A stretch of DNA of 46,401 bases from a virus: the IMG/VR virus record IMGVR_UViG_3300037473_000190, positions 1 to 46,401 of that record, one strand, 5' to 3'. Shown piece after piece: positions 1 through 46,401 of this stretch. Made by a program: the position numbers and the translations under genes. Under the pieces are notes generated by a model. That model was given only the letters and a program-made list of their open reading frames with translations. It made no database searches and had not been told where the DNA came from. How positions within the stretch are numbered: position 1 is the first letter of the stretch; each line of letters starts with the position of its first letter.

Positions 1-127
1 AAAAAGAACGAACCCCGGCAGCGACCGCAGCCACTCCCAGAACGTCACGTTGTCGCGCACGTCCTTCTGCGTGACCACCTGCCGATACGCGACCGGGACG
101 CCGTCCTTGTCGTTGATGAGGGTGATC
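1..127. repeat. Terminal direct repeat, copy 1 (identical to 46275..46401); circular closure overlap
   Basis: Bases 1..127 (aaaaagaacgaaccccggcagcgacc...gttgatgagggtgatc) were compared by eye and match 46275..46401 exactly. Confidence 0.95.
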
Positions 128-9976: not shown

Positions 9977-12382
9977 TTAGCCGACCTTCTTCATGCCGAA
10001 CTCGAATTTATTGAGCATGTCCAGGATCTCGTTGATCTTGTTGTTCTTTTTGTATGACTCCGGGATGTCCTGCATCGCGCCCGCGAGGAGCTTCTTCGCC
10101 TCGTTCAGGTGATGAAACCCGAGGTTCTGCTTTGAACGCCAGAACGCCGGGTCGAGCTCGAGCGTCTTCTTGTAGCACTCTATGCCCTTCTCGGTGTCGC
10201 CGTCGTTAAGGTAATGCAGTGCCATGTTGAAAAGCGGCCGCGGGTCCTTCTCGCCCGAGATCGCGAACTGCCGCATGTTGATCTTCTCGTAGCGGTTGAT
10301 CTTCTCGCGCACGCGGTCCTGCGTCTTGAGATAGCCCCGATGATGCAGCGCGACCGGGGATTGAACGACGTAACCCCGATGCGCCCGGCAGCGTGCGGCG
10401 ATCGATTCCTCGAGCGATTCGTGGACGAGGCCCGAGTAAAAGATTTCGGGAATGTTCCGGTAAAGCCGGATCGTCTCCGAGATCGAGTACTCGTTTTCCT
10501 GCGGCTTGTTGGACTTCGGCATCGAGAGATAATTGATGACGGAAAAAAGGAACCCGTCGCACTCCTCGTCGATGAAGTTGAACAGCTTGTGGACGTCCTC
10601 CTGCATGAAAAGCTCGTCGCAGTCCATGTTGAGAATCCACGCGCCGCGGCATTGCATCTTCGCCCAGTTCTTCGCCTCGGAGTAATTGAGCAGCCGGCCG
10701 TTTTCGTCGACGTCGAACTTCTTCTCGAAGATCCTCACCTTGCGGTTAAAAAGCCGCCCGAAGCGGATCACCTCGTCGATCGTGTGGTCCGTCGACCCGG
10801 TGTCCACGATGACGATCTCGTCGGCGATCGGCTCGATGTTCGTGAGCATCTGCCCGATGAGCTCCTCCTCGTCCTTGCACACCACCATGACGGAGATGTC
10901 GTTCTTCTCGCGGTAATTCTTCACCGTGACGTTCTTGTCGATGAGGTGATGATAATCCTCGTTGCCTACGTCAGCCCGAACAGGGCGCGGATCCGCATTT
11001 CGATAGAACTCATATTTGCGCTTTCTCTGCGCCTCGGTGTCGTACCCCAGATGCTTGACCCGGATGTTGAGCCACGATACGTTTTCCGGGGGAATCGACG
11101 GCGCACTCCCGCAATGATGGTTATACACGTTTGAATTTTCCCGGATCCGCATGCCGGGAAGTACTCGGAAGAACCGGCAATTCTGGAACCCTCCGAAAAT
11201 TCCGTCAGCACGATATTTCTCGACACCGTTTTCTTCCTCCCAGATCGTGCGCCAGAAGTACGAATAGCCCATGATCTGCGGGTTCTTCGGACGGATGAGC
11301 TCGGGCGCCATGTTGACGAACTTGTCCTCGTACACCTCGTCGCCGTCGATCGAGATGATCCAGTCCGCGCCGCGCGCGATCGCCGCCTGCAGGAGCCAGT
11401 CCCGCTCGGCCTGCTCGTCGAACGGGTGCGCGTCTTCGTGCCACTCCTCCCAGAACTTCACCTTCGGGAACGACAGCGCGATCTCTTTCGTGCGGTCCTT
11501 CGACCGGGCGAAAAGGCAGATGATCTCGTCCGCGAACTTCGACGTCTGCTCGAGCGACTTCGCGATGTACGCCTCGCAGTTGGCGATGCGGTAGACCGCG
11601 ATGAGCTTCGGCTTCTCGGCGGCCGCCCACTTCGCGTAAAAGAGCTCCTGGTTCTTGCGGCCGTTCAAGAGGTAGTCGCTGTAAAATTTGTCCTTCATGG
11701 ACGCCTTGAAACTGCGCTGCCCGATGTGGTAAATGTACGTCCCGAAGTCAATGAAAATCCGAAGCCCTTTCGTACGCGCGCGCATGCAAAGGTCGTTGTC
11801 CTCGAATGCGTTCACGAACTGCGGGTCGAACGCGTACTCCTCGCCTTCGAGGAATTCGCGCGACACGAACATGCACCACCCGAACACGAGGCCCGCCTCC
11901 TGGTACTTCCCGGCATTGGCGCGCGTCCACTCGAGCGCCGCCTCGTCGAAATTGCGGCCGTTTCGGATGTCGCCGACCATTTGACGGCCTGCGGAATTCG
12001 ATCCGCACGGCCCGACGATCGCGATCTTCTCGTCGTGGCGCATGCAGATGTCGAGCATCTCGATCCACTTCGCCGTGACGATCGTGTCCGAATTGAGGAA
12101 CACGATGCGCTCGCCCTCCGCGAGCTCGACGCCCTGGTTGTTCGCGGGCCCGAAGTTGCGGTTGTCGGGGTTCTCGATGAGCTTGACGTTCTTGTGCCGC
12201 GCGGCAAGCTCTCTCAAATACCCGACGCTCCCGTCGGTCGATCCGTTGTCGACCACGATGAGCTCGAAGTTTTCCGTGTTACGAAACACCGAGTCCACGC
12301 ACCGGGCCGTGTCTTCGATCGTGTTGAAGCTCACCACGATCACCGAAGCTTTTACGCCTTCTCTCTGAGGCATGAGTCGCAT
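9977..12382 (-). CDS. Multidomain glycosyltransferase: three tandem GT2-like domains plus a C-terminal TPR-like region (801 aa)
   Basis: Domain 1 (aa 12-230): SVIVVSFN...VVDNGSTDGS...FLNSDT. Domain 2 (aa 258-460, divergent): IAVYRIAN...ISIDGDEV...VKHLGY. Domain 3 (aa 495-690): SVMVVCKDEE...IVDTGSTDHT...NMDCDELF...LHHRGY. TPR-like tail: ALHYLNDGDTEKGIECYKKTLELDPAFWRS. Confidence 0.8.
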   Translation of the reverse strand: MRLMPQREGVKASVIVVSFNTIEDTARCVDSVFRNTENFELIVVDNGSTDGSVGYLRELAARHKNVKLIENPDNRNFGPANNQGVELAEGERIVFLNSDTIVTAKWIEMLDICMRHDEKIAIVGPCGSNSAGRQMVGDIRNGRNFDEAALEWTRANAGKYQEAGLVFGWCMFVSREFLEGEEYAFDPQFVNAFEDNDLCMRARTKGLRIFIDFGTYIYHIGQRSFKASMKDKFYSDYLLNGRKNQELFYAKWAAAEKPKLIAVYRIANCEAYIAKSLEQTSKFADEIICLFARSKDRTKEIALSFPKVKFWEEWHEDAHPFDEQAERDWLLQAAIARGADWIISIDGDEVYEDKFVNMAPELIRPKNPQIMGYSYFWRTIWEEENGVEKYRADGIFGGFQNCRFFRVLPGMRIRENSNVYNHHCGSAPSIPPENVSWLNIRVKHLGYDTEAQRKRKYEFYRNADPRPVRADVGNEDYHHLIDKNVTVKNYREKNDISVMVVCKDEEELIGQMLTNIEPIADEIVIVDTGSTDHTIDEVIRFGRLFNRKVRIFEKKFDVDENGRLLNYSEAKNWAKMQCRGAWILNMDCDELFMQEDVHKLFNFIDEECDGFLFSVINYLSMPKSNKPQENEYSISETIRLYRNIPEIFYSGLVHESLEESIAARCRAHRGYVVQSPVALHHRGYLKTQDRVREKINRYEKINMRQFAISGEKDPRPLFNMALHYLNDGDTEKGIECYKKTLELDPAFWRSKQNLGFHHLNEAKKLLAGAMQDIPESYKKNNKINEILDMLNKFEFGMKKVG

Positions 12383-12384
12383 GA

Positions 12385-12891
12385 TTATAAATTCTCCTGT
12401 TTTTTTTCCGCTATTCCCACGCAGTCGTCCGCGTAGCTGAAAATCTCGAGCTCACGAAGTCCCGCGTCTTCGATCAAAACCCGCATGCCGTCATCCAGAA
12501 TTCGCCAACAGTCAAGCGGGCAAAGCTCCCCCTTATGAACGAAAAAACTCCACGGCGCGATGAGACAGATGATGCCGCCCGGCTTAAGCACGCGCGCGAT
12601 CTCTTTCACCGTGTTCCACGGACGCCTGCAGTGCTCGAGCGTCTGCCCCGAGATCACGACGTCGAACTCGGCGTCCTTGAACGGAAAAACGTCTTCCTTG
12701 TTCGACACCACGTCGACGCCTTCGCCGGGCGCCGCATCGAGTCCGACATGCTCCGTCACCACGCCGTTGAAAATATGCCGATACGACCCGTTGATGTCCT
12801 GGCTCCCGACGTCAAGAAGCCGCTTCCCGGCGAGCCGGTCCGCGTATTTATTCTTGAATTCGGCCATGAGCTTTAAGCTGTCCGGGTGCAT
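12385..12891 (-). CDS. Class I SAM-dependent methyltransferase (168 aa)
   Basis: ATG at 12891 (MHPDSL) overlaps the upstream TAA by 1 nt (TAATG). Motif I is RLLDVGSQD; the post-I acidic residue and the later motif VLKPGGIICL are also present. Confidence 0.75.
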   Translation of the reverse strand: MHPDSLKLMAEFKNKYADRLAGKRLLDVGSQDINGSYRHIFNGVVTEHVGLDAAPGEGVDVVSNKEDVFPFKDAEFDVVISGQTLEHCRRPWNTVKEIARVLKPGGIICLIAPWSFFVHKGELCPLDCWRILDDGMRVLIEDAGLRELEIFSYADDCVGIAEKKQENL

Positions 12892-13259
12892 TATGCGACC
12901 TTCTCCACAAGCGCCTCGATGTGATGTGTGTTGCCGTCGAAGTCGAACATCGGCTCGACCTCCGTAACGCGGCCGAGCGTGAGCCCGACGATCACCGACA
13001 CCGGATAAAGAAGATCGCCGACCTGCACGTCTTCGTTGTACCTGGCGAACATCCGGTAATCGCCGTACTTGAAATCTCCGGGCTCTTTTCTTTTCTGCAG
13101 CCCCGAGATCGTTTCCCAGTAGCACGACATGGCGGCCGCGATGACGGTCTCGCCAGTCCACCGCCGGTCCCCCATGGCCGTGGCCGTGTATCCGGTGCGC
13201 CGCGCCACCTTGACGGTGTGGTTCAGAATGAGGCGAAACTCGTCCTCAAACCTCGGCAC
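12891..13259 (-). CDS. Head-tail adaptor-like small structural protein (122 aa)
   Basis: GTG at 13259 lies 6 nt after an AGGAGG SD. Size and position between connector-type genes fit an adaptor. No enzymatic motifs were seen. The longer track ORF upstream is R/S-rich shadow. Confidence 0.45.
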   Translation of the reverse strand: MPRFEDEFRLILNHTVKVARRTGYTATAMGDRRWTGETVIAAAMSCYWETISGLQKRKEPGDFKYGDYRMFARYNEDVQVGDLLYPVSVIVGLTLGRVTEVEPMFDFDGNTHHIEALVEKVA

Positions 13260-14319
13260 CCTGCGCCTCCTGGGGTTCCATGTTGAGCAGGTCGAGTCCG
13301 TTCTCGACCGCGAGCTTCTGGTAAAGCTCGGAATACCGCCGCGACATTTCGCGCTCGGTGAAATGCGCGAGCACGTGCTCCTGCCCGCGCTGCGCGAACT
13401 CCTCGCGGATCGACGGCCTCTCGCGCAGATAGATCGCGCGCGCGGCGAGCTGCTCGACGTCGTGTTCCTTGACGAGCATCGCGTTCCCGAGGAGCAGCTC
13501 CCGCGTGACCGCGTTCTCCCACGTGAGCACCGCCACGCCGGACGCGGCCGCCTCGAGCAGCACGAGCCCGAAGCCCTCCGTCGCCGACGGATACATGAAA
13601 AGGTCCATGGCTGAATACACGGTGCGCGCGTCGTCCGTCTCTCCGGTGAAAACGACGTTCTTGAGCGGGAACGATGCCGCCATGACCTTGATCTTGCCGA
13701 GATACCCCTTCGCGTTCGAGGCCTCCCCGCCACCGATCAGGATCCACGTGTCCGGGTGCTGCTGCTGGATGATCCAACACGCCGCGAGGAACTGCTCCAC
13801 GCCCTTGTCGTACCCGAGGCGCCCCATGCGCCCGATGACGTACGCGTCGCGCGGGATGCCGAGCTTTTCCTTGTAATCGGCCGGCGTCATGTCTTCCGGC
13901 GTCTCGAGACGATCGACGTCGACGCCGTTATAGATCGTCGTGCATTTCCGGTTCATCTTCGAAACGACGCACGACACGCCGATGCGCTGCCACACGAACT
14001 TTTCGCGGACGGCCGACACGATCGGCGAATGCACGGTCTCGACGGTGCAGATCGATCCCTGCACGCTCGTCGCGATGTTGGACGGCTCGCCGCCAGTGTG
14101 CACGTGGATGATGTCCATGACGAGGTTGTGCTCGGTCTTCTTGTCTTCGACGAACACTTTCGCCCCCGCCGCCTCGAGAAGCGGCCGCATCGGGCCGTCT
14201 TTGTAGGTGTAGACGGAATGCTCGTTCGCCTTGTCGTGCTTCACGATCCCCAGAACGACGCGCTCCGCGCCGCCCATGTCGAGCTGATTCAGTTCGTGTA
14301 AGACCCTCATCGGCCTCAT
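13246..14319 (-). CDS. GT4-family (GT-B fold, Glycos_transf_1) glycosyltransferase
   Basis: C-terminal signature: YSAMDLFMYPSATEGFGLVLLEAAASGVAVL. The N-terminal part is GT-B-like (LNQLDMGGAERVV). The preferred start at 14319 lies 7 nt after GGAGG and forms an ATGA overlap with the upstream stop. Confidence 0.8.
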   Translation of the reverse strand: MRPMRVLHELNQLDMGGAERVVLGIVKHDKANEHSVYTYKDGPMRPLLEAAGAKVFVEDKKTEHNLVMDIIHVHTGGEPSNIATSVQGSICTVETVHSPIVSAVREKFVWQRIGVSCVVSKMNRKCTTIYNGVDVDRLETPEDMTPADYKEKLGIPRDAYVIGRMGRLGYDKGVEQFLAACWIIQQQHPDTWILIGGGEASNAKGYLGKIKVMAASFPLKNVVFTGETDDARTVYSAMDLFMYPSATEGFGLVLLEAAASGVAVLTWENAVTRELLLGNAMLVKEHDVEQLAARAIYLRERPSIREEFAQRGQEHVLAHFTEREMSRRYSELYQKLAVENGLDLLNMEPQEAQGAEV

Positions 14320-14891
14320 TCGCATGCCTCCTTGTTGACGTACACCGCACCGAACCCCGCATCGCCGTGAACGGGGAGACTGATCTTCGGATGCCCCGGA
14401 TTAAAGCTCGTCCAGAACTCCCGCATTCTTTCGTTCAAAGAAATGTCGTCGAAAAAAACGATCGCGCGCCGCGCGAGCTTCGGATACCACGCCTGGAACT
14501 CCATGAGCGGCTGCAGTCCGTTGTGCTCGGTGTCGATGAAAAGAAGCTCGATCCCCTTGTGCTCCGTCGGCTTCAAGCTGTCGCCGAGAAGATACGTCAC
14601 GTTCGGGCGGCGCGTCTTTTCGTACACCTGGTCCCCGATGTCGATCGTCACCACCTGCCCGGACGGATTGCCCTCCGCGAGGCACATCGAAGACGTCCCG
14701 CGCCACGTGCCGAGCTCCACCATGAGCGACGGACGGAAGCGATCGGCGATGAGGTACAGAAAGCGGTAATACGCCGAGCTCCAGTTCTCGTCGACCTTAA
14801 GCCATTCCGGCACCGCAAGCGAGGCCGATTCCTGCGCGATGCTCTCGATGAGGTGCTGCACGCTCATTTTCGGATCGTCCCCCAGAATCAT
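14316..14891 (-). CDS. Class I SAM-dependent methyltransferase, O-methyltransferase / CmcI-like (191 aa)
   Basis: ATG at 14891 forms an ATGA overlap. Motif I is MVELGTWRGTSS. VVTIDI and LLFIDTEHN are typical of sugar O-methyltransferase-like enzymes. Confidence 0.65.
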   Translation of the reverse strand: MILGDDPKMSVQHLIESIAQESASLAVPEWLKVDENWSSAYYRFLYLIADRFRPSLMVELGTWRGTSSMCLAEGNPSGQVVTIDIGDQVYEKTRRPNVTYLLGDSLKPTEHKGIELLFIDTEHNGLQPLMEFQAWYPKLARRAIVFFDDISLNERMREFWTSFNPGHPKISLPVHGDAGFGAVYVNKEACE

Positions 14892-15604
14892 CCGAGCCTG
14901 CTTACTTCTGCCGCCGACAGCTGATCTTTCACGGAAACCCCCTCGCATTTTAGTCCGATGAACGGCGTGATCGACACGACGTCCGCTCCGTAAACTTCCT
15001 TCACGCGCGCGCGGACCGCCGAGAGCTCTCGGACGTTCCGCACGAACGCGTCGTTCATGTGAAGCCGCCACGCCTCGATCGACCCCGACGCCTGCATCTG
15101 CGGGATCTCCGCGCGGTTGAAGTACTCCCCGAAATTCACCTTGCCCTCGATCGCCGCGCAGTCCACGCCGATGAGGAAAATCGTCTTGGCGCCCAGGTGT
15201 GCCGCGAGGTTCACGGCCGCGACCGAGATCGTGTTCCCGAGGCAAAGCCGGTCATCGCTGCCGAGGTCCTCGAGGTTCTTCTCGAAGTCGAAAACCTTCC
15301 CGGTGCCGAACACGAAATAATCTTCCGGCGTCTCGACGTCGTTCGGCGTGCCGCCGCCTTCATGCAGGTCGAGGGCCGACACGACGCATTTCAGCCCCTG
15401 CCCGCGCGCGCGGGTAAACGTGTCGGCGTGGGTGCAGATCATGAAATCCGCGCGAACCCACTTCCACACGTCGTTCATCGCGATGACCTTCTTTCCTTCG
15501 AGGAACCCGAGGCCGCGGAACCTGTCGACGCTCGAGCCCGAGCCCACGACGTACACGTCCTCGCCCTTCCAGATTCCCTTAAGGTCCGCGATGCTCTTTT
15601 TCAT
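14888..15604 (-). CDS. DUF115 / MptE-like domain protein (Maf-type putative glycosyltransferase)
   Basis: GEDVYVVGSGSSVDRF...KKVIAMNDV...ADFMICTHAD and GNTISVAAVNLAAHLGAKTIFLIGVDCA match the two conserved blocks of the DUF115 family as I recall them. Confidence 0.65.
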   Translation of the reverse strand: MKKSIADLKGIWKGEDVYVVGSGSSVDRFRGLGFLEGKKVIAMNDVWKWVRADFMICTHADTFTRARGQGLKCVVSALDLHEGGGTPNDVETPEDYFVFGTGKVFDFEKNLEDLGSDDRLCLGNTISVAAVNLAAHLGAKTIFLIGVDCAAIEGKVNFGEYFNRAEIPQMQASGSIEAWRLHMNDAFVRNVRELSAVRARVKEVYGADVVSITPFIGLKCEGVSVKDQLSAAEVSRLG

Positions 15605-16158
15605 CGGTCACCGTGTCCTTCGTGGACGTTCTCGTACGACCCGCCGACGAGCTGCCGGATCTTTCTGAACTCGATGACGAAAACCTCTTTCACGTGCGGC
15701 TTCACGACGCCGTGATCGTGCTCGATCGAGGAGCCGTTGAGCTGCCATGCGTGCGTGAGCTCGCCGTTCCAGTAGCTTCCGACCGGGACCGTGATGATGA
15801 CCTGCTTCGACGCGACGCGAAAAAGCTCCGCGAGCCCTTTGCCCGGGTTCGGCAGGTGCTCGAGGATCTCCGCACCGATCACCGTGTCGAACTCGCCGTC
15901 GGCGTACGGCAGCGCGTTGATGTCCGCGTTGACCGCCTCGATGCCGAACGTCTGCAGGGCCGCGTCGCGCGCTTCCTTGCGGTTGTCGACGGCCACGACC
16001 TCGAGGCCTTTTTCGATGAGCGCCTTCGCGACGAACCCCTCGTTGCACCCGACCTCGAGGACGCGCGGCCCCTCGGCCCGGTTCACGATCTCCTGCACAC
16101 GCGCGCGCACTACCGGGACGGTGCAGTGCGGGAAGTCGTACCACTTGTCGAGCGGCAT
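15601..16158 (-). CDS. Class I SAM-dependent methyltransferase (185 aa)
   Basis: Motif I is RVLEVGCNEG, followed by VVAVDN and DTVIGAEILEHLPNP (Methyltransf_11-like). Confidence 0.75.
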   Translation of the reverse strand: MPLDKWYDFPHCTVPVVRARVQEIVNRAEGPRVLEVGCNEGFVAKALIEKGLEVVAVDNRKEARDAALQTFGIEAVNADINALPYADGEFDTVIGAEILEHLPNPGKGLAELFRVASKQVIITVPVGSYWNGELTHAWQLNGSSIEHDHGVVKPHVKEVFVIEFRKIRQLVGGSYENVHEGHGDR

Positions 16159-16530
16159 TTATGCCTCGCCTCGAATGTCTTCGCGGTCCTGCAGCGCGCG
16201 CTCGTCGGCGGGCCCGAACGTCTGCTCCGCGACCGTGTCCCAGGGCACTTGACCGAGCTCGAGCAGCATCTTGGCACCTTCGCGCAGTTCCTTCGCGATC
16301 GACCGCGTGTCCTCGGCGTACTTCCCGGCCGACTTGTACTTCGCGAGCAACGCCTTCGAATGCGAGATCGCAAGCAGCGCGTTCGCGGCCGCGATCTTCA
16401 CGTCGTTGTCGTACAAATTGAGCAGTGCCGTGATTTCTTCGTCGGAGAAAAGAGCGTTCGAGCTGTCGGTGTCGCGGATCAGAAGCCGCACCTGTCCGAT
16501 GCTCGTCGTAAGCACATACGTGAAACTCAT
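16159..16530 (-). CDS. gp6-like head-tail connector protein
   Basis: 123 aa, the first gene after the major capsid gene. The N-terminal pattern IGQVRLLIRDTDSSNALFSDEEITALLNLY resembles the Phage_connect_1 family. GGAGGG SD present. Confidence 0.6.
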   Translation of the reverse strand: MSFTYVLTTSIGQVRLLIRDTDSSNALFSDEEITALLNLYDNDVKIAAANALLAISHSKALLAKYKSAGKYAEDTRSIAKELREGAKMLLELGQVPWDTVAEQTFGPADERALQDREDIRGEA

Positions 16531-16614: not shown

Positions 16615-17598
16615 TTACGAGCCGCCTTTGAAGATCGCCTGGTAGAACGCAGGCGAAATTCCCCAGTCCATGCGGCACTTGTACTCGATGTCGTCGTACG
16701 CGTAACCCCACTGATCGTCGCCGCCGCCCAACTTCTGGGCGGGAGGCGCCATGAGCAGCGCGGGTTCCGTCTGTCCTTCGAGCATCGTCACTTCGATCGC
16801 GTGCAGATCCTGCGGGTCCGCGAACAGATACCACCTGTTCGGGAACGCCGTAAGATACGGCTCCACGACGAGCGTGAGCCCGCCGGAAAGCGCGGGCGAC
16901 AAGAGCGGGTTCGAGTTCGGACCGTCGGTCGAGCCGCGCGCGATGGCCGTCGAATTGAGCAGCCATTGGGCGACGTCGGCCTTCGCGGGCGAAACGACGA
17001 GGTACTTCGCGCGCATGCCGAGGATCTCCGAGGTGTGGGGATCCGTGGCCGTCGCGATGACCTTCATGCCGTTCTGCACCGCCGCGATGCCGGTGACGTC
17101 GGCCGTCAGAGCGTCGGACGAGCTGTTCGCCGCGCGGATCAGCGACGAACCGTCGTACGCGTTCGGATTCGACTCGAGCACTTCGCAAACCTTCTTTGCG
17201 ATCGTGCGACCCGCGGCGCGGCCGAGTTTCGTCGGGACGTCCTGAAACGCGTTCAGGTCATCGTTGATGACCGTCTCGCGAAGCAGGTTGAACGTCTCGC
17301 CGAAAGTCTCGAGCGCGATCGAGTAGCCGTAGTCCTTCATCGTGCCGCTCTGGTACGGACCGCCGGGCAGCCGCTTCTTGAGATCCTGGATCTCAGAAAG
17401 CCACTTCCGGTTGTGCGACTTGAAGTCGTCGACCGTCGTCGATTTGCAGAACAGATTCCACGAGGACGGCCAGCCCTTGAATGCCTTGATGAGCATCTTG
17501 TGCTGAACGTCGGCCATGATGTTCGGGAAATCGGACGGCGAACCGCTTTCGCGGAGCTCCGACCAAATCTTGAGAAGCGAACCTTTTTTAAATCGCAT
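16615..17598 (-). CDS. Major capsid protein (327 aa)
   Basis: It follows the scaffold and decoration genes, as in lambda-like head modules. ATG at 17598 lies 8 nt after GAGGGGG. It is flanked by a consensus promoter upstream of the unit and a terminator downstream. Confidence 0.75.
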   Translation of the reverse strand: MRFKKGSLLKIWSELRESGSPSDFPNIMADVQHKMLIKAFKGWPSSWNLFCKSTTVDDFKSHNRKWLSEIQDLKKRLPGGPYQSGTMKDYGYSIALETFGETFNLLRETVINDDLNAFQDVPTKLGRAAGRTIAKKVCEVLESNPNAYDGSSLIRAANSSSDALTADVTGIAAVQNGMKVIATATDPHTSEILGMRAKYLVVSPAKADVAQWLLNSTAIARGSTDGPNSNPLLSPALSGGLTLVVEPYLTAFPNRWYLFADPQDLHAIEVTMLEGQTEPALLMAPPAQKLGGGDDQWGYAYDDIEYKCRMDWGISPAFYQAIFKGGS

Positions 17599-17695
17599 GA
17601 ATATCACCCCCTCTCTCATTCGTTGATCTTTTGCGCGCTTATCCGTCCGCGCTCGGGTTCGCTTATGAAACTAATTTTTTCTTTGGAACGAATTC

Positions 17696-18058
17696 TTACT
17701 GCGCGTTGCCTGCCGCCGCACGCGGGAAGCCCACGTTCAAGCGGAGCAGATAGACCTGGTTCGTCGAGTCGAGCGTGTCGACGATCTGCGCGACCTCGAG
17801 ATCCTTCGCCGCAGCACCCAGGGACAGGAGCGAGTTCGTCCGGTCCCAGTACAGGAAGCAACCCGCCGCGAGCGTCCCGCCAATGGCGAGAGTGTGCGCG
17901 ACGAGGCCTTCCATGATGAACGCGACCGTCTGGTTCGCCACGGCGTGAGCCACGGGGATACCGGCGATCAGGTTCTGCACGGTGAAGGTTCCCGAAGAAA
18001 CGGGCGCCGCGGGCTTGACGTCCACGCGACGGCCGAGCGGGTTTTTCAGGTTCAGCAT
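17696..18058 (-). CDS. DUF2190-like head decoration / cement protein
   Basis: 120 aa, between scaffold and capsid genes. The pattern ...AGCFLYWDRTN...VYLLRLNVG resembles DUF2190 proteins (aG..vYWD...v.v.L). Confidence 0.55.
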   Translation of the reverse strand: MLNLKNPLGRRVDVKPAAPVSSGTFTVQNLIAGIPVAHAVANQTVAFIMEGLVAHTLAIGGTLAAGCFLYWDRTNSLLSLGAAAKDLEVAQIVDTLDSTNQVYLLRLNVGFPRAAAGNAQ

Positions 18059-37526: not shown

Positions 37527-38291
37527 TTACGCCTCCGAACCGCCTTCTTCGTGAACCTTGAGCTCCTTCACGTACGGCGCGAACGCGTCGTAAAGGGTCT
37601 TGCCGATCTCGAGCTCGTCCGCTTCCACGGTGCCGACCTTCGCCACCGTGTAGACGTAATACGTGCCCTTCTCGTTCGTCTCCTGCCGGACGCCGAGCTC
37701 GTACTTGCCGGAGCGCATCGCGCCGCCCGCGTACCGGGCGATGTTGAGCAGCTCCTTCCCCGCGCCGTAGCTCGTCTTTCCGAACGACAGGACGAGCGGC
37801 ATCGCGATCCCCTCGAAGTAGCAGAGGAAGTTCATGAACGTAGTCGCGGCCGGCGTCTCGCCGTTCTTGCCGAACTTCGTTTCGTTCACGACGCGCGGAT
37901 CGTCCGGGTCCGTCGAGCGCCACACGACCTCGCCCGCCTTGATGCCGGGGACGAAATTCGCGTCCTTGTCGCTCCTCGGGTTGAAGCGCACCCAGTTCGT
38001 CCACTTGAGGATCGGGATGAACCGGGGCGGCAGCGTCTCTTTCGTGAGCGAGTTGATCACCATGCCCGCGAAGAAGTCGCGCGGCTTCTCCTGCACTTCG
38101 GGCGAGAGCCCCTGCAGAAGACGCACCCGCGGGATCACCGCTTCCTTCGGGTTCATGCCTTCCTCGAACCCTTCGCGGCCCTGCTCGAACACCGCGAGGA
38201 TCTTCGCCTTCATCTCGGCCGGAGACACCACGAGCCCGGTCTCCTCGGCCTGCGTCTGCAGATCCTTCTTCTCCGCTTTGTCTTTCGCCAT
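37527..38291 (-). CDS. Hypothetical protein (254 aa), possibly DNA-binding by position
   Basis: Track ORF with coding-like composition and an acidic C-terminus. No motif recognised. Confidence 0.6.
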   Translation of the reverse strand: MAKDKAEKKDLQTQAEETGLVVSPAEMKAKILAVFEQGREGFEEGMNPKEAVIPRVRLLQGLSPEVQEKPRDFFAGMVINSLTKETLPPRFIPILKWTNWVRFNPRSDKDANFVPGIKAGEVVWRSTDPDDPRVVNETKFGKNGETPAATTFMNFLCYFEGIAMPLVLSFGKTSYGAGKELLNIARYAGGAMRSGKYELGVRQETNEKGTYYVYTVAKVGTVEADELEIGKTLYDAFAPYVKELKVHEEGGSEA

Positions 38292-38352
38292 GACGTACCT
38301 CCTTGTTGTGGAACTATAGACCGCGCCTTCTGGCGCGCCCCGATCGCCGCGT

Positions 38353-38913
38353 CTATTTTTTACGCAGCGAAAGCTTGGCCTTCAAGATGTACGAGATGCC
38401 GTCCGGCACCTTCTTGCCGTTCTGGATGAGCTCACCGACGAACGTCGAAAGCGTTTTCGGGTGAATGGTTTCTTTGATGACGTCGCCGCGCCCGAGCGTC
38501 TTGATCTCCTCGAACGCCTTGTCGCGGTTGGCTTCGGTGATCGAGGCGTAGACCTCCGACCCCGAGATCTCCGCGCGGCCGATGCCCTCGTACACGGCCG
38601 TCGCGTCCTTGCCGTGGTCTTCGAGGAACTTGATGAGCTCGTCGCCCGCGCGTGCCTTGTCGGACTTCGCCGTCTCGAGATCGGAATTGAGCTTCGTGCA
38701 AAGCTCCGACGCTTCGCGGTACGCCGAGAGCAGCTGCATCTCCGTGAGCGGAAGCTTCTCGAGGTCCGCGACGTCGCACTTGAACGTGTCCTTCTGGCCG
38801 TCCCAGAGGACGAGCGACATTTGCTCGTTCATGAAATCTTCGATCGTGCCGGGCGCGCCGTCCGATTTGCGCCGCACGCGGTAACCCACTTTCAGTTCAC
38901 GCCGTTCTGCCAT
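38353..38913 (-). CDS. Hypothetical protein (186 aa)
   Basis: Track ORF with a central coiled-coil-like region. Confidence 0.6.
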   Translation of the reverse strand: MAERRELKVGYRVRRKSDGAPGTIEDFMNEQMSLVLWDGQKDTFKCDVADLEKLPLTEMQLLSAYREASELCTKLNSDLETAKSDKARAGDELIKFLEDHGKDATAVYEGIGRAEISGSEVYASITEANRDKAFEEIKTLGRGDVIKETIHPKTLSTFVGELIQNGKKVPDGISYILKAKLSLRKK

Positions 38914-46058: not shown

Positions 46059-46401
46059 TTATTTCCCCTGGATTTTATCGACGAGCTTCTTCGTCGGCAT
46101 GTCTTGAACCACGCCCATTTGCGTGTAGATCGTTTCCTTGACGGCCGGGTCCTGCACCTTGTCGAGCGCCTTGTCAACGCCGACCACGATCTGCTTCGTG
46201 CTTTTCATGAGCGCGCCGTACACGCGCCAGAACACGATCGCCGCGGGCGGGAACACCGCGCCCAGGACCATGAGAAAAAGAACGAACCCCGGCAGCGACC
46301 GCAGCCACTCCCAGAACGTCACGTTGTCGCGCACGTCCTTCTGCGTGACCACCTGCCGATACGCGACCGGGACGCCGTCCTTGTCGTTGATGAGGGTGAT
46401 C
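46059..46401 (-). CDS. 3' part of the junction-spanning membrane protein gene (same gene as 1..270; 5' end cut by the window edge)
   Basis: Track ORF 46059..46352 is in frame with the codons of 1..270 through the 127-bp repeat. Confidence 0.7.
   Translation of the reverse strand, partial: ITLINDKDGVPVAYRQVVTQKDVRDNVTFWEWLRSLPGFVLFLMVLGAVFPPAAIVFWRVYGALMKSTKQIVVGVDKALDKVQDPAVKETIYTQMGVVQDMPTKKLVDKIQGK
46275..46401. repeat. Terminal direct repeat, copy 2 (identical to 1..127)
   Basis: Exact 127/127 match, read by eye. Confidence 0.95.

What the first reader, a model, noticed from the sequence alone, without database searches (positions are those of the whole stretch)
14888..15604. Stand-alone DUF115 (Maf / MptE-like) gene inside a phage structural module
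The ORF carries both conserved DUF115 blocks: VYVVGSGSSV...ADFMICTHAD and GNTISVAAVNLAAHLGAKTIFLIGVDCA. In Campylobacter, Helicobacter, Aeromonas and Magnetospirillum, Maf proteins built around this domain are the proposed transferases that put CMP-activated pseudaminic or legionaminic acid onto flagellin Ser/Thr. Here the gene is sandwiched between two methyltransferases with ATGA overlaps on both sides. The same genome also encodes a CMP-nonulosonate synthetase-type enzyme (27971..28654). That co-occurrence is the strongest hint that a sialic-acid-like sugar is involved.
Basis: partly seen in the sequence, partly recalled or inferred. Interest (0 to 1): 0.7.

Follow-up and report, generated by a model that had tools for sequence, protein, structure and literature searches.

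The report
Phage capsid-adjacent sialyltransferase-like sugar transferase
An uncultured phage carries, right behind its capsid gene, a minimal sialyltransferase-fold enzyme together with sugar-building and methylating enzymes, and comparison with hundreds of other viral genomes suggests it caps a glycan, probably on the virus particle, with a sialic-acid-like acidic sugar.

Summary
ORF 14888..15604 (-) is a real 238-aa gene with the quoted motifs. It is joined by ATGA overlaps to a methyltransferase on each side, in the head-to-tail module of a complete 46.3-kb phage genome.

On its own the protein scores just below Pfam's PF01973 threshold. It does belong to a large, unnamed, mostly stand-alone PF01973 clade (1252 representatives). 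A confident AlphaFold model matches GT42 and GT29 sialyltransferases best.

It is not a Maf: it lacks Maf's N- and C-terminal domains and any flagellar context.

Context supports a CMP-activated ulosonic acid (nonulosonate or Kdo) as donor. Of 80 viral loci with a relative, 12 carry a NeuA-like cytidylyltransferase, 9 carry NeuB and 6 carry a PhyH-type dioxygenase, often directly adjacent. Bacterial relatives sit in Wzm/Wzt polysaccharide clusters, two with a full Kdo pathway.

In 24 of the 80 viral loci, from two unrelated capsid lineages, the gene lies within four ORFs of the capsid gene. This points to virion glycosylation.

This phage has the NeuA-like and PhyH genes but no synthase. Its NeuA-like enzyme also lacks a conserved sugar-site segment.

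Everything functional is inferred; nothing was measured. I class it as a new variant of a known kind, of moderate to high interest.

The parts
14888..15604 (-). Stand-alone PF01973 (DUF115/MptE-like) protein of 238 aa with a sialyltransferase-like fold. Proposed CMP-ulosonic-acid transferase.
   Evidence: Family-conserved residues kept here: G21, G23, S25, N44, H59, G138, A139, G146, D148 (invariant in 107 sequences), G154, R198, S211, P214, F215.
15601..16158 (-). SAM-dependent methyltransferase (Methyltransf_11/25). Its stop codon overlaps the target's start (ATGA).
   Evidence: Best NCBIfam hit is the sugar O-methyltransferase MftM, far below its cutoff. The same methyltransferase-then-DUF115 pair with a 4-nt overlap occurs on the contigs of P0002 and P0018. 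Fusions of the two domains exist (P0005, P0047).
14316..14891 (-). Methyltransf_24 methyltransferase. Its start overlaps the target's stop (ATGA).
   Evidence: weak hit to rhamnosyl O-methyltransferase. Conserved in all 7 related phage loci.
13246..14325 (-). GT4 / Glycos_transf_1 glycosyltransferase. An alternative start at 14319 was called by JGI/Logan.
   Evidence: Conserved in the 7 related phage loci.
12891..13259 (-). Small 122-aa protein conserved in the lineage between the two glycosylation blocks. Presumed head-tail joining protein.
   Evidence: Gene call. Homologs sit at the same position in 7 related loci. No Pfam hit. The role is inferred from position only.
12385..12891 (-). Second Methyltransf_11 methyltransferase.
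9977..12382 (-). 801-aa protein with three GT2-type domains and a C-terminal TPR. The third GT2 domain plus TPR resembles SunS-type peptide glycosyltransferases. Candidate protein-directed glycosyltransferase.
   Evidence: Glycos_transf_2 in 3 stretches, TPR at 716-746. (TIGR04195 SunS family, 8.5e-13, below cutoff). Conserved in the 7 related loci.
16159..16530 (-). 123-aa protein directly after the capsid gene, conserved in the lineage. Presumed head completion or connector protein.
   Evidence: (phrog_18316 and phrog_1732, function unknown).
16615..17619 (-). Major capsid protein (Phage_capsid_4). Candidate acceptor of the glycan.
   Evidence: (8.6e-41). The acceptor role is inferred.
17696..18058 (-). 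Capsid cement/decoration protein (Phage_cement_2). Alternative acceptor.
27971..28654 (-). NeuA/LegF/PseF-type cytidylyltransferase (CTP_transf_3). Proposed to make the CMP-activated donor. Its C-terminal half is atypical.
   Evidence: (PseF model 99.7 bits, cutoff 205.7). Deletion and missing R-Q-D motif.
28651..29466 (-). PhyH-family Fe(II)/2-oxoglutarate dioxygenase, ATGA-coupled to the cytidylyltransferase. Proposed sugar-modifying enzyme.
   Evidence: PhyH-type genes accompany NeuA, NeuB and DUF115 in 6 viral loci.

Best explanation
The 238-aa protein is a minimal, single-domain glycosyltransferase of the sialyltransferase-like fold shared by GT42 (Cst-I/II), GT29 and the central domain of Maf.

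Proposed mechanism:
1. It takes a CMP-activated 2-keto-3-deoxy acidic sugar, either a nonulosonic acid of the neuraminic/legionaminic/pseudaminic type or Kdo.
2. It adds that sugar, probably as a terminal cap, to a glycan built by the neighbouring GT4 and triple-GT2/TPR enzymes.
3. The translationally coupled methyltransferases O-methylate the sugar or the glycan.
4. The donor is activated by the phage's own NeuA-like cytidylyltransferase and perhaps modified by the coupled PhyH dioxygenase. The free sugar comes from the host, because the phage has no synthase.
5. The cassette is embedded in the late head-to-tail operon, so the acceptor is most likely a virion protein (capsid, cement or tail tube), as in glycosylated mycobacteriophages.

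Shown: the gene, its family, its fold similarity, its operon structure and the comparative associations.
Inferred: donor, acceptor and role.

My rough sub-probabilities are 0.6 for a CMP-ulosonate transferase and 0.55 for a virion protein as target.
For: Fold:
- The AlphaFold model has pLDDT 92.9.
- Its top PDB matches are sialyltransferases: 9c08, CstII 1ro8, 2wml, ST8SiaIII and ST6GalNAc2, at probability 0.8-0.99.
- The family profile aligns its G-x-D block and C-terminal S-x-x-P-F strand to the GIDFY...SISPM region of 9c08.
- A PHROG annotated as alpha-2,3-sialyltransferase hits at 1.3e-7.

Viral context:
- 470 IMG/VR contigs encode relatives.
- Of the 80 loci fetched, 12 have a NeuA-like gene, 9 have NeuB (E 1e-27 to 1e-38) and 6 have a PhyH-type gene within 10 kb.
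- DUF115 is directly adjacent to NeuA or NeuB in L008, L014, L015, L021, L027, L031 and L155.
- NeuA-like genes were found on only 523 of 2.9 million viral contigs with one search pattern, so this co-occurrence is far above chance.

Bacterial context:
- Two loci (L099, L101) carry KdsD-KdsB-KdsA-KdsC a few genes away. L100 carries KdsA and an adjacent 2OG oxygenase.
- P0018 (36% identical) has the same methyltransferase-DUF115 overlap, followed by an epimerase and a DegT aminotransferase.
- BFVD matches include proteins of CroV and Fadolivirus. Both viruses have a predicted Kdo pathway (PMC9614988).

Virion target:
- In 24 of 80 loci the gene is within 4 ORFs of the capsid gene. These come from two unrelated capsid families: 7 Phage_capsid_4 loci and 17 HK97 PF05065 loci. 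The gene lies between the capsid and head-tail adaptor genes.
- There are ATGA overlaps and no intergenic terminators.
- The neighbouring GT2-TPR protein is SunS-like.
- Phage-encoded glycosylation of capsids is established for Che8, Corndog and Myrna (Freeman et al. 2023, as summarised in PMC12363180).

Maf enzymes with this domain transfer Pse, Leg, Neu5Ac and Kdo from CMP donors (PMC11339370; bioRxiv 10.1101/2020.06.03.131540).
Against: - TM-scores to sialyltransferases are only 0.41-0.45.
- The solved Maf (5mu5) and MptE (8sd5) structures did not appear in the Foldseek top 50. By sequence profile the best PDB hit is actually the kinase MptE, though only at E=0.018 over two short motifs.
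- The position aligned to the catalytic His of GT42 is not conserved in the family and is Val in this protein.
- Most viral loci with the family (68 of 80) show no cytidylyltransferase within 10 kb. Most viral NeuA/NeuB loci (74 of 80) have no DUF115 relative.
- This phage's complete genome has no NeuB, NeuC or KdsA.
- Its cytidylyltransferase lacks a conserved segment and lies 12 kb away among replication genes.
- In L099 a KpsC/S-type gene could be the real user of the Kdo genes.
- In a rough NJ tree the window protein sits on a long branch, outside the clade of its own phage lineage.
- No glycan has been observed on any of these particles.
Confidence: 0.5

Rival explanations
1. The protein is a kinase or pyrophosphokinase, like the archaeal PF01973 member MptE. 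It phosphorylates a glycan end, and the coupled methyltransferase then methylates the phosphate. This would be a methyl-phosphate cap like the one made by the WbdD kinase-methyltransferase of E. coli O9a.
For: - PF01973 includes a proven ATP-dependent pyrophosphokinase. The family profile's best PDB sequence hit is MptE 8sd5 (E=0.018).
- The pairing with a methyltransferase is very tight: 4-nt overlaps in three independent contigs and fusions.
- Bacterial relatives sit in Wzm/Wzt clusters whose Wzt has the cap-reading Wzt_C domain.
- No catalytic His equivalent to GT42 is conserved.
Against: - Structural matches are to sialyltransferases, not kinases.
- Recurrent immediate adjacency to NeuA/NeuB and to Kdo-pathway genes has no rationale for a kinase.
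- The MptE match is limited to the glycine loop and the G-x-D block, which sialyltransferases also share.
Confidence: 0.12
2. It is a glycosyltransferase of this fold but uses a different donor, such as an NDP-hexose. The cytidylyltransferase and PhyH genes 12 kb away would then serve something else, for example a nucleotide or DNA modification, or an unrelated host-takeover function.
For: - The cytidylyltransferase lies in the replication module between an exonuclease/PhyH and ParB/DNA methylase genes, and its sugar-site region is atypical.
- 68 of 80 viral family loci have no cytidylyltransferase nearby.
- In the HK97-type phages the cassette is only GT4 + GT2 + DUF115.
Against: - To my knowledge, all characterised enzymes of this fold other than MptE (GT42, GT29, Maf) use CMP-ulosonic acids. 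This rests on established knowledge of those families and on PMC11339370.
- The PhyH-CTP_transf_3-DUF115 trio is contiguous in L014.
- Hosts can supply CMP-Kdo or CMP-nonulosonate, so absence of pathway genes in a phage is uninformative.
Confidence: 0.15
3. The cassette modifies the host's surface polysaccharide (O-antigen or capsule capping) to block superinfection or change serotype, rather than the virion.
For: - Bacterial relatives work in O-polysaccharide or capsule-type ABC-transporter clusters.
- Phage-encoded O-antigen modification is common. PHROG annotations of the neighbouring GT2 genes read GtrB-like O-antigen conversion.
Against: - The genes are inside the late structural operon with overlapping stop and start codons, between capsid and connector genes. 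The same slot is used in an unrelated capsid lineage.
- No integrase was found among the ORFs scanned.
- No flippase, Wzm/Wzt or undecaprenyl-phosphate transferase is encoded in the phage.
Confidence: 0.18

Closest known systems
Maf (motility accessory factor) flagellin nonulosonic-acid glycosyltransferases, e.g. Magnetospirillum Maf (PDB 5MU5), C. botulinum CbMaf
   Same: Shares the PF01973 domain, which in Maf is the Cst-II-like catalytic core (PMC11339370). The proposed donor is a CMP-activated ulosonic acid. Protein O-glycosylation is the likely outcome.
   Different: Maf has three domains and is about 600 aa or more, with an N-terminal Rossmann-like domain and a C-terminal helical domain. 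It works on flagellin within flagellar glycosylation islands. The phage protein is 238 aa with the central domain only, has no flagellar context, and matches 5mu5 only weakly by profile (E=1.2).
GT42 bacterial sialyltransferases (Cst-I, Cst-II, P. multocida 9C08) and GT29 eukaryotic/viral sialyltransferases
   Same: These are the best structural matches. They share the N-terminal glycine-rich loop, the G-x-D block and the terminal strand-Pro motif. They are similar in size to the phage protein.
   Different: No PF06002 hit for this protein. TM-scores are only 0.41-0.45. The aligned position of the catalytic His is not conserved. Sequence identity is 9-15%.
MptE, archaeal 6-hydroxymethyl-7,8-dihydropterin pyrophosphokinase (PDB 8SD5)
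   Same: Same Pfam family, similar length (241 aa), single domain. Best PDB hit by sequence profile (E=0.018).
   Different: MptE is an ATP-dependent kinase in pterin biosynthesis. Here every neighbour is a glycan enzyme, and relatives associate with NeuA/NeuB/Kds genes. 8sd5 is absent from the Foldseek top 50.
Virion glycosylation cassettes of mycobacteriophages Che8, Corndog and Myrna
   Same: Phage-encoded glycosyltransferases act on capsid and tail proteins (PMC12363180, citing Freeman et al. 2023).
   Different: A PF01973/sialyltransferase-like component or CMP-ulosonic acid has not, to my knowledge, been described for those systems; I could not read Freeman et al. 2023. The host range is different, and here there is no experimental evidence of glycosylation.
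Chain-terminating enzymes of ABC-transporter O-polysaccharide pathways (WbdD methyltransferase/kinase; WbbB beta-Kdo transferase, GT99)
   Same: Bacterial relatives of the phage protein lie with a methyltransferase in Wzm/Wzt clusters that have Wzt_C. Some have Kdo-pathway genes, which suggests a capping role.
   Different: Different folds and families: WbdD is a protein-kinase-like enzyme plus methyltransferase, and WbbB is GT99. The phage has no transporter. The capping role is an inference from context.

Membership tests
Pfam PF01973 (MptE-like / DUF115 / Maf_flag10) superfamily | Match to the PF01973 profile at or above the gathering score | tested here: inconclusive
   The single sequence scores 33.3 bits against a cutoff of 34.6, E=5.2e-8, over the C-terminal third of the profile only. 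In its family, 94 of 107 aligned relatives hit PF01973 at E<1e-3, best 1.8e-14. Precomputed Pfam labels give PF01973 for the protein itself.
Pfam PF01973 (MptE-like / DUF115 / Maf_flag10) superfamily | N-terminal G-x-G-(P/S)-S loop and central G-x-D block | tested here: met
   G21-S-G23-S-S25 and G146-V-D148 are present. D148 is invariant in 107 sequences. Both blocks align to MptE 8sd5, and the G-x-D block aligns to sialyltransferase 9c08.
Maf flagellin glycosyltransferases | Three-domain architecture (N-terminal Rossmann-like, central PF01973, C-terminal helical domain) | tested here: not met
   The protein is 238 aa and the model is a single alpha/beta domain. The architecture definition is from PMC11339370.
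Maf flagellin glycosyltransferases | Genomic linkage to flagellin or a flagellar glycosylation island | tested here: not met
   No flagellar gene was found in the complete phage genome or in the viral and bacterial loci examined.
Maf flagellin glycosyltransferases | Transfer of a nonulosonic acid or Kdo from a CMP donor to Ser/Thr | not testable with these tools
   Only indirect support exists: association with NeuA/NeuB/Kds genes.
GT42 sialyltransferases (Cst-I/II) | Sialyltransferase fold with a CMP-binding Rossmann-like core | tested here: inconclusive
   GT42 chains are the top Foldseek PDB hits (probability 0.99), but at E=1e-3 and TM 0.41-0.45. No coordinates were available for a direct superposition.
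GT42 sialyltransferases (Cst-I/II) | Match to PF06002 (CST-I) and a conserved catalytic His after the lid region | tested here: not met
   No PF06002 hit for this protein; only 1 of 107 relatives hits it. In the 9c08 alignment, the column facing the His of the Y-H-S motif maps to position 191. That position is Val here and E/Y/R in the family. That this His is the GT42 catalytic base is from my own knowledge of Cst-II.
MptE pterin pyrophosphokinase | Pterin/folate biosynthetic context in archaea | tested here: not met
   All neighbours are glycosyltransferases, methyltransferases or virion genes. No NCBIfam hit.
Phage virion glycosylation cassettes | Glycosyltransferase genes embedded among virion structural genes | tested here: met
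   The cassette lies between the capsid/connector and neck/tail genes. The same slot is used in 7 related loci and 17 unrelated-lineage loci.
Phage virion glycosylation cassettes | Glycans demonstrably attached to capsid or tail proteins | not testable with these tools
   The phage is uncultured and metagenomic. No particle data exist.

The most novel reading that the evidence does not exclude
Stand-alone PF01973 proteins are an unrecognised glycosyltransferase family that caps glycans with CMP-activated ulosonic acids, often methylated. Many uncultured phages, and some giant viruses, use them from a cassette placed directly behind the capsid gene to 'sialylate' their own particles. Decoration of a phage virion with a nonulosonic acid or Kdo has, to my knowledge, never been observed. 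The same enzyme-plus-methyltransferase pair would act as a chain-terminating module in bacterial Wzm/Wzt polysaccharide pathways.
Probability: 0.3. Interest if true: 0.8.

Novelty: new variant of a known kind. Interest (0 to 1): 0.6.

Why it matters
Glycosylated phage particles are so far documented only for a few mycobacteriophages, where the glycans shield virions from antibodies. If this cassette puts an acidic, sialic-acid-like, methylated cap on capsids, three things would follow:
- Virion glycosylation would extend to a much wider set of phages: 470 IMG/VR contigs and at least two unrelated capsid lineages.
- A new class of sugars would be added to phage surfaces, with consequences for particle charge, adhesion, immune recognition and receptor mimicry.
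- A function would be assigned to a large, unnamed protein family (1252 representatives at 50% identity, no NCBIfam model) that also occurs in bacterial O-polysaccharide and capsule clusters and in giant viruses.

It would also give glyco-engineers a 240-residue minimal ulosonic-acid transferase.

Tried and rejected
Searches and predictions that gave nothing useful:
- phmmer of the protein against PDB sequences gave only noise.
- NCBIfam gave no hit for this protein or for two bacterial relatives.
- The word-indexed homolog search found only itself and one relative. The exhaustive representative search was needed.
- AlphaFold with a 2-sequence alignment was poor (pLDDT 54.5). I discarded that model in favour of the 107-sequence one.
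The 5-sequence alignment gave only 11 bacterial loci.
- tblastn of four different family members against 50,697 GenBank phage records found no match. The clade is apparently absent from, or too divergent in, isolated phages.

Ideas I rejected:
- That the Tannerella Pse/Leg transferases are DUF115 proteins. They are GT-B/TagB-like.
- That the cyanophage cytidylyltransferase reported as an auxiliary metabolic gene is relevant. It is a glycerol-3-phosphate type.
- That the roughly 310-aa unknown partner in bacterial loci is a second DUF115. It is a divergent GT8-like protein.

Other dead ends:
- Freeman et al. 2023 could not be read.
- The window has no tRNA genes, which removes one possible host clue.
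Full report
**1. The observation**

ORF 14888..15604 on the minus strand has an ATG start and encodes 238 aa. Its codon-position GC (0.61/0.40/0.85) matches the other real genes of this 60.8% GC sequence, all of which lie on the minus strand.

The + strand reads tcat at 15601-15604 and at 14888-14891. The gene therefore overlaps both neighbours by ATGA.
- The upstream neighbour (15601..16158) is a Methyltransf_11/25 protein.
- The downstream neighbour (14316..14891) is a Methyltransf_24 protein.

The window carries an exact 127-bp terminal direct repeat. It is therefore a complete, circularly assembled genome of about 46.3 kb. The same phage was assembled independently from other samples.

**2. 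Is it DUF115?**

Alone, the protein hits PF01973 at E=5.2e-8. The score is 33.3 bits, just under the gathering score of 34.6, and covers only residues 95-152.
- NCBIfam has nothing.
- PHROGs gives a family annotated as alpha-2,3-sialyltransferase at 1.3e-7.
- PDB sequences give nothing.

An exhaustive profile search of 1.84 billion representatives found 1252 relatives at E<=1e-3 and 277 at E<=1e-10. Most are stand-alone proteins of 210-290 aa. In an alignment of 107 of them, 94 hit PF01973. The conserved core is Y18, G21, G23, S25, N44, H59, A134, G138, A139, G146, D148 (invariant), G154, R198, S211, P214 and F215. The phage protein keeps all of these. So it is a genuine but divergent member of an unnamed stand-alone clade of the PF01973 superfamily.

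**3. Fold**

With the 107-sequence alignment, AlphaFold gives a confident single alpha/beta domain (pLDDT 92.9, pTM 0.92).

Foldseek against the PDB ranks these first:
- the GT42 sialyltransferases 9c08 and CstII 1ro8 (probability 0.99, TM 0.41-0.45)
- SteA
- the GT29 sialyltransferases 2wml, ST8SiaIII and ST6GalNAc2

By sequence profile the PDB hits are all weak:
- MptE 8sd5 at 0.018, over the glycine loop and G-x-D block only
- 9c08 at 0.03
- Cst-I 2p2v at 0.031
- Maf 5mu5 at 1.2

Against predicted viral structures there are 25 hits at E<=1e-3. Most are uncharacterised proteins of uncultured tailed phages. The wider hit list also includes giant-virus proteins from CroV, Fadolivirus, ChoanoV1 and Pyramimonas orientalis virus, and, at E of 0.01-0.04, two herpesvirus sialyltransferases.

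**4. The neighbourhood in the window**

Read 5' to 3' on the coding strand, the genes are:
- terminase, portal, a 513-aa scaffold-like protein, cement protein, major capsid protein
- a 123-aa conserved protein
- block 1: methyltransferase, DUF115, methyltransferase, GT4
- a 122-aa conserved protein
- block 2: methyltransferase and an 801-aa triple-GT2/TPR protein
- neck/tail-completion protein, tail tube, tape measure, distal tail protein

There is no excess of terminator-like sites, and none lies in an intergenic gap. The only strong promoter-like site is upstream of the scaffold gene. The glycan genes are therefore part of the late structural operon. The third GT2 domain plus TPR of the 801-aa protein resembles SunS-type peptide glycosyltransferases (below cutoff), which hints at a protein acceptor.

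**5. Relatives in viruses**

A pattern scan of IMG/VR found 470 viral contigs encoding relatives, and I fetched 80 loci.

Seven loci belong to the same phage lineage (L006, L007, L009-L012, L035). They carry the same module of cement, capsid, 123-aa protein, Methyltransf_24, GT4, 122-aa protein and triple GT2. In them the DUF115 gene sits in either of the two blocks. In six of them it is followed by a radical-SAM/SPASM protein instead of being preceded by a methyltransferase.

Seventeen other loci have an unrelated HK97-type capsid (PF05065). Their usual order is portal, protease, capsid, GT4, small GT2, DUF115, head-tail adaptor, tail terminator, major tail protein. In some, DUF115 directly follows the capsid gene.

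So in 24 of 80 loci the gene lies within four ORFs of the capsid gene, in the same capsid-to-connector slot, in two capsid lineages. None of four family members tested matches any of 50,697 GenBank phage records.

**6. The link to CMP-activated ulosonic acids**

The window gene 27971..28654 is a CTP_transf_3 protein.
- Its best solved relatives are CMP-Neu5Ac synthetases; KdsB scores far lower.
- Its closest bacterial homologs (37-43% identity) lie next to NeuB and a NeuC-type epimerase in legionaminic/neuraminic-type clusters.
- It is ATGA-coupled to a PhyH-family dioxygenase at 28651..29466.

Among the 80 viral DUF115 loci, a NeuA-like gene occurs within 10 kb in 12, NeuB in 9 and a PhyH-type dioxygenase in 6.
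- L014 carries PhyH, CTP_transf_3 and DUF115 as contiguous genes.
- L015 carries DUF115, NeuA and NeuB contiguously.
- L008 and L021 carry DUF115 next to NeuB.
- L027 and L031 carry NeuA next to DUF115.

One search pattern found NeuA-like genes on only 523 viral contigs. Of the best 80 of those, 6 carry a DUF115 relative. The association is therefore strong relative to chance, but not obligatory.

The bacterial relatives examined lie in ABC-transporter (Wzm/Wzt, often with Wzt_C) polysaccharide clusters, next to a Methyltransf_23 gene.
- Two (L099, L101) have KdsD-KdsB-KdsA-KdsC a few genes away.
- One (L100) has KdsA and an adjacent 2OG oxygenase.
- The contig of P0018 (36% identical) repeats the methyltransferase-DUF115 4-nt overlap, followed by an epimerase and a DegT aminotransferase.

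Domain fusions in the family join it to GT4, RgpF, Methyltransf_23/24 and a CST-I domain.

**7. Interpretation**

The best-supported reading is a minimal sialyltransferase-fold enzyme that transfers a CMP-activated ulosonic acid (nonulosonate or Kdo) onto a glycan. It works with a dedicated methyltransferase, and in this phage it most likely decorates a virion protein.

The fold, the family, the operon structure and the associations are shown. The donor, the acceptor and the role are inferred.

Points against:
- Structural similarity is modest.
- No GT42-type catalytic His is conserved.
- The complete genome lacks any synthase.
- The phage cytidylyltransferase lacks about 25 residues, including an R-Q-D motif present in all eight aligned relatives.
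- Most family loci have no nearby pathway genes.
- A KpsC/S-type gene in L099 may be the real user of the Kdo genes there.
- A rough NJ tree places the window protein on a long branch outside its own lineage's clade. This suggests an independent acquisition.

**8. Comparison with known systems**

It is not a Maf. Maf has three domains and acts on flagellin (PMC11339370). This protein is the central domain alone, in a phage.

It works most like GT42/GT29 sialyltransferases and the Maf core, but it fails the sequence-level membership tests for GT42.

It shares a Pfam family with the kinase MptE but none of MptE's context.

As a system it resembles the virion glycosylation cassettes of mycobacteriophages (PMC12363180, citing Freeman et al. 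2023). As far as I know, a sialyltransferase-like component has not been described for those systems.

CroV and Fadolivirus, which have predicted Kdo pathways (PMC9614988), also have proteins of this fold.

**9. Verdict**

Three corrections apply: the protein is a stand-alone clade rather than a Maf, the sugar may be Kdo rather than a nonulosonate, and this phage must depend on its host for the free sugar.

Novelty is a new variant of a known kind. Interest is 0.6.

Noticed in passing
window 1-127 and 46275-46401: An exact 127-bp direct repeat at the two ends, so the window is a complete, circularly assembled phage genome of about 46.3 kb. Near-identical contigs of 46,344 and 46,304 bp exist in other samples.
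   Followed up: yes
window 27971-28654 (-): The NeuA-like cytidylyltransferase lacks a segment of about 25 residues, together with the R-Q-D motif that is present in all eight aligned viral and bacterial relatives. Pfam and NCBIfam match only its first ~140 residues. It may have an unusual substrate or be impaired.
   Followed up: partly
L014 6821-9482; also L008, L028, L050, L067, L069: A recurrent viral cassette combines NeuA, NeuB, a PhyH-type Fe(II)/2OG dioxygenase and the DUF115 relative. This suggests a hydroxylated or otherwise modified nonulosonic acid made by viruses. In L014 the dioxygenase has an extra N-terminal domain of about 190 aa that occurs as a separate gene in L050.
   Followed up: partly
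L007 6658-7593, L009 10702-11646, L010 9851-10795, L011 10638-11591, L012 5686-6630, L035 5045-5986: In six phages of the same lineage the DUF115 gene is followed by a radical-SAM/SPASM protein of about 314 aa. In the window it is instead preceded by a SAM methyltransferase. The radical-SAM protein's role is unknown. Its best NCBIfam matches are metalloenzyme maturases, all far below cutoff.
   Followed up: partly
L004 9057-9983, L005 15373-16308, L100 9812-10780, L101 6936-7931, L088 7286-8212: Bacterial Wzm/Wzt clusters that hold a DUF115 relative also hold a conserved protein of about 310-330 aa with no Pfam or NCBIfam hit (40-52% identical to each other). It is distantly related to the GT8 glycosyltransferases of the same clusters.
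   Followed up: partly
window 9977-12382 (-): An 801-aa protein with three GT2-type domains and a C-terminal TPR. Its last GT2 domain plus TPR weakly resembles SunS-family peptide S-glycosyltransferases. It is conserved in all seven related phages.
   Followed up: partly
window 12891-13259 (-) and 16159-16530 (-): Two small lineage-conserved proteins with no Pfam hit bracket the first glycosylation block. The glycan genes therefore occupy two separate insertion slots in the head-to-tail joining region, and the DUF115 gene is found in either slot in different relatives.
   Followed up: partly
window 37527-38913 (-): Two adjacent genes match Pam3 phage gp34-like (PF23977, 1.9e-27) and gp33-like (DUF7307, 1.7e-14) families. 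They lie in the early/replication half of the genome.
   Followed up: no
window 26089-27352 (-) and 31062-32279 (-): An N6/N4 DNA methylase gene overlaps a ParB_N-like ORF, and there is a second, larger ParB-like HTH protein. No integrase was found among the ORFs scanned. This may indicate a plasmid-like or strictly lytic lifestyle.
   Followed up: no
L089 (SAR202 MAG contig) versus L050 (IMG/VR contig): The two loci have almost the same gene order (NeuA, NeuB, ..., DUF115) and ORF lengths. The MAG contig is therefore probably a phage or prophage binned into a bacterial genome.
   Followed up: no
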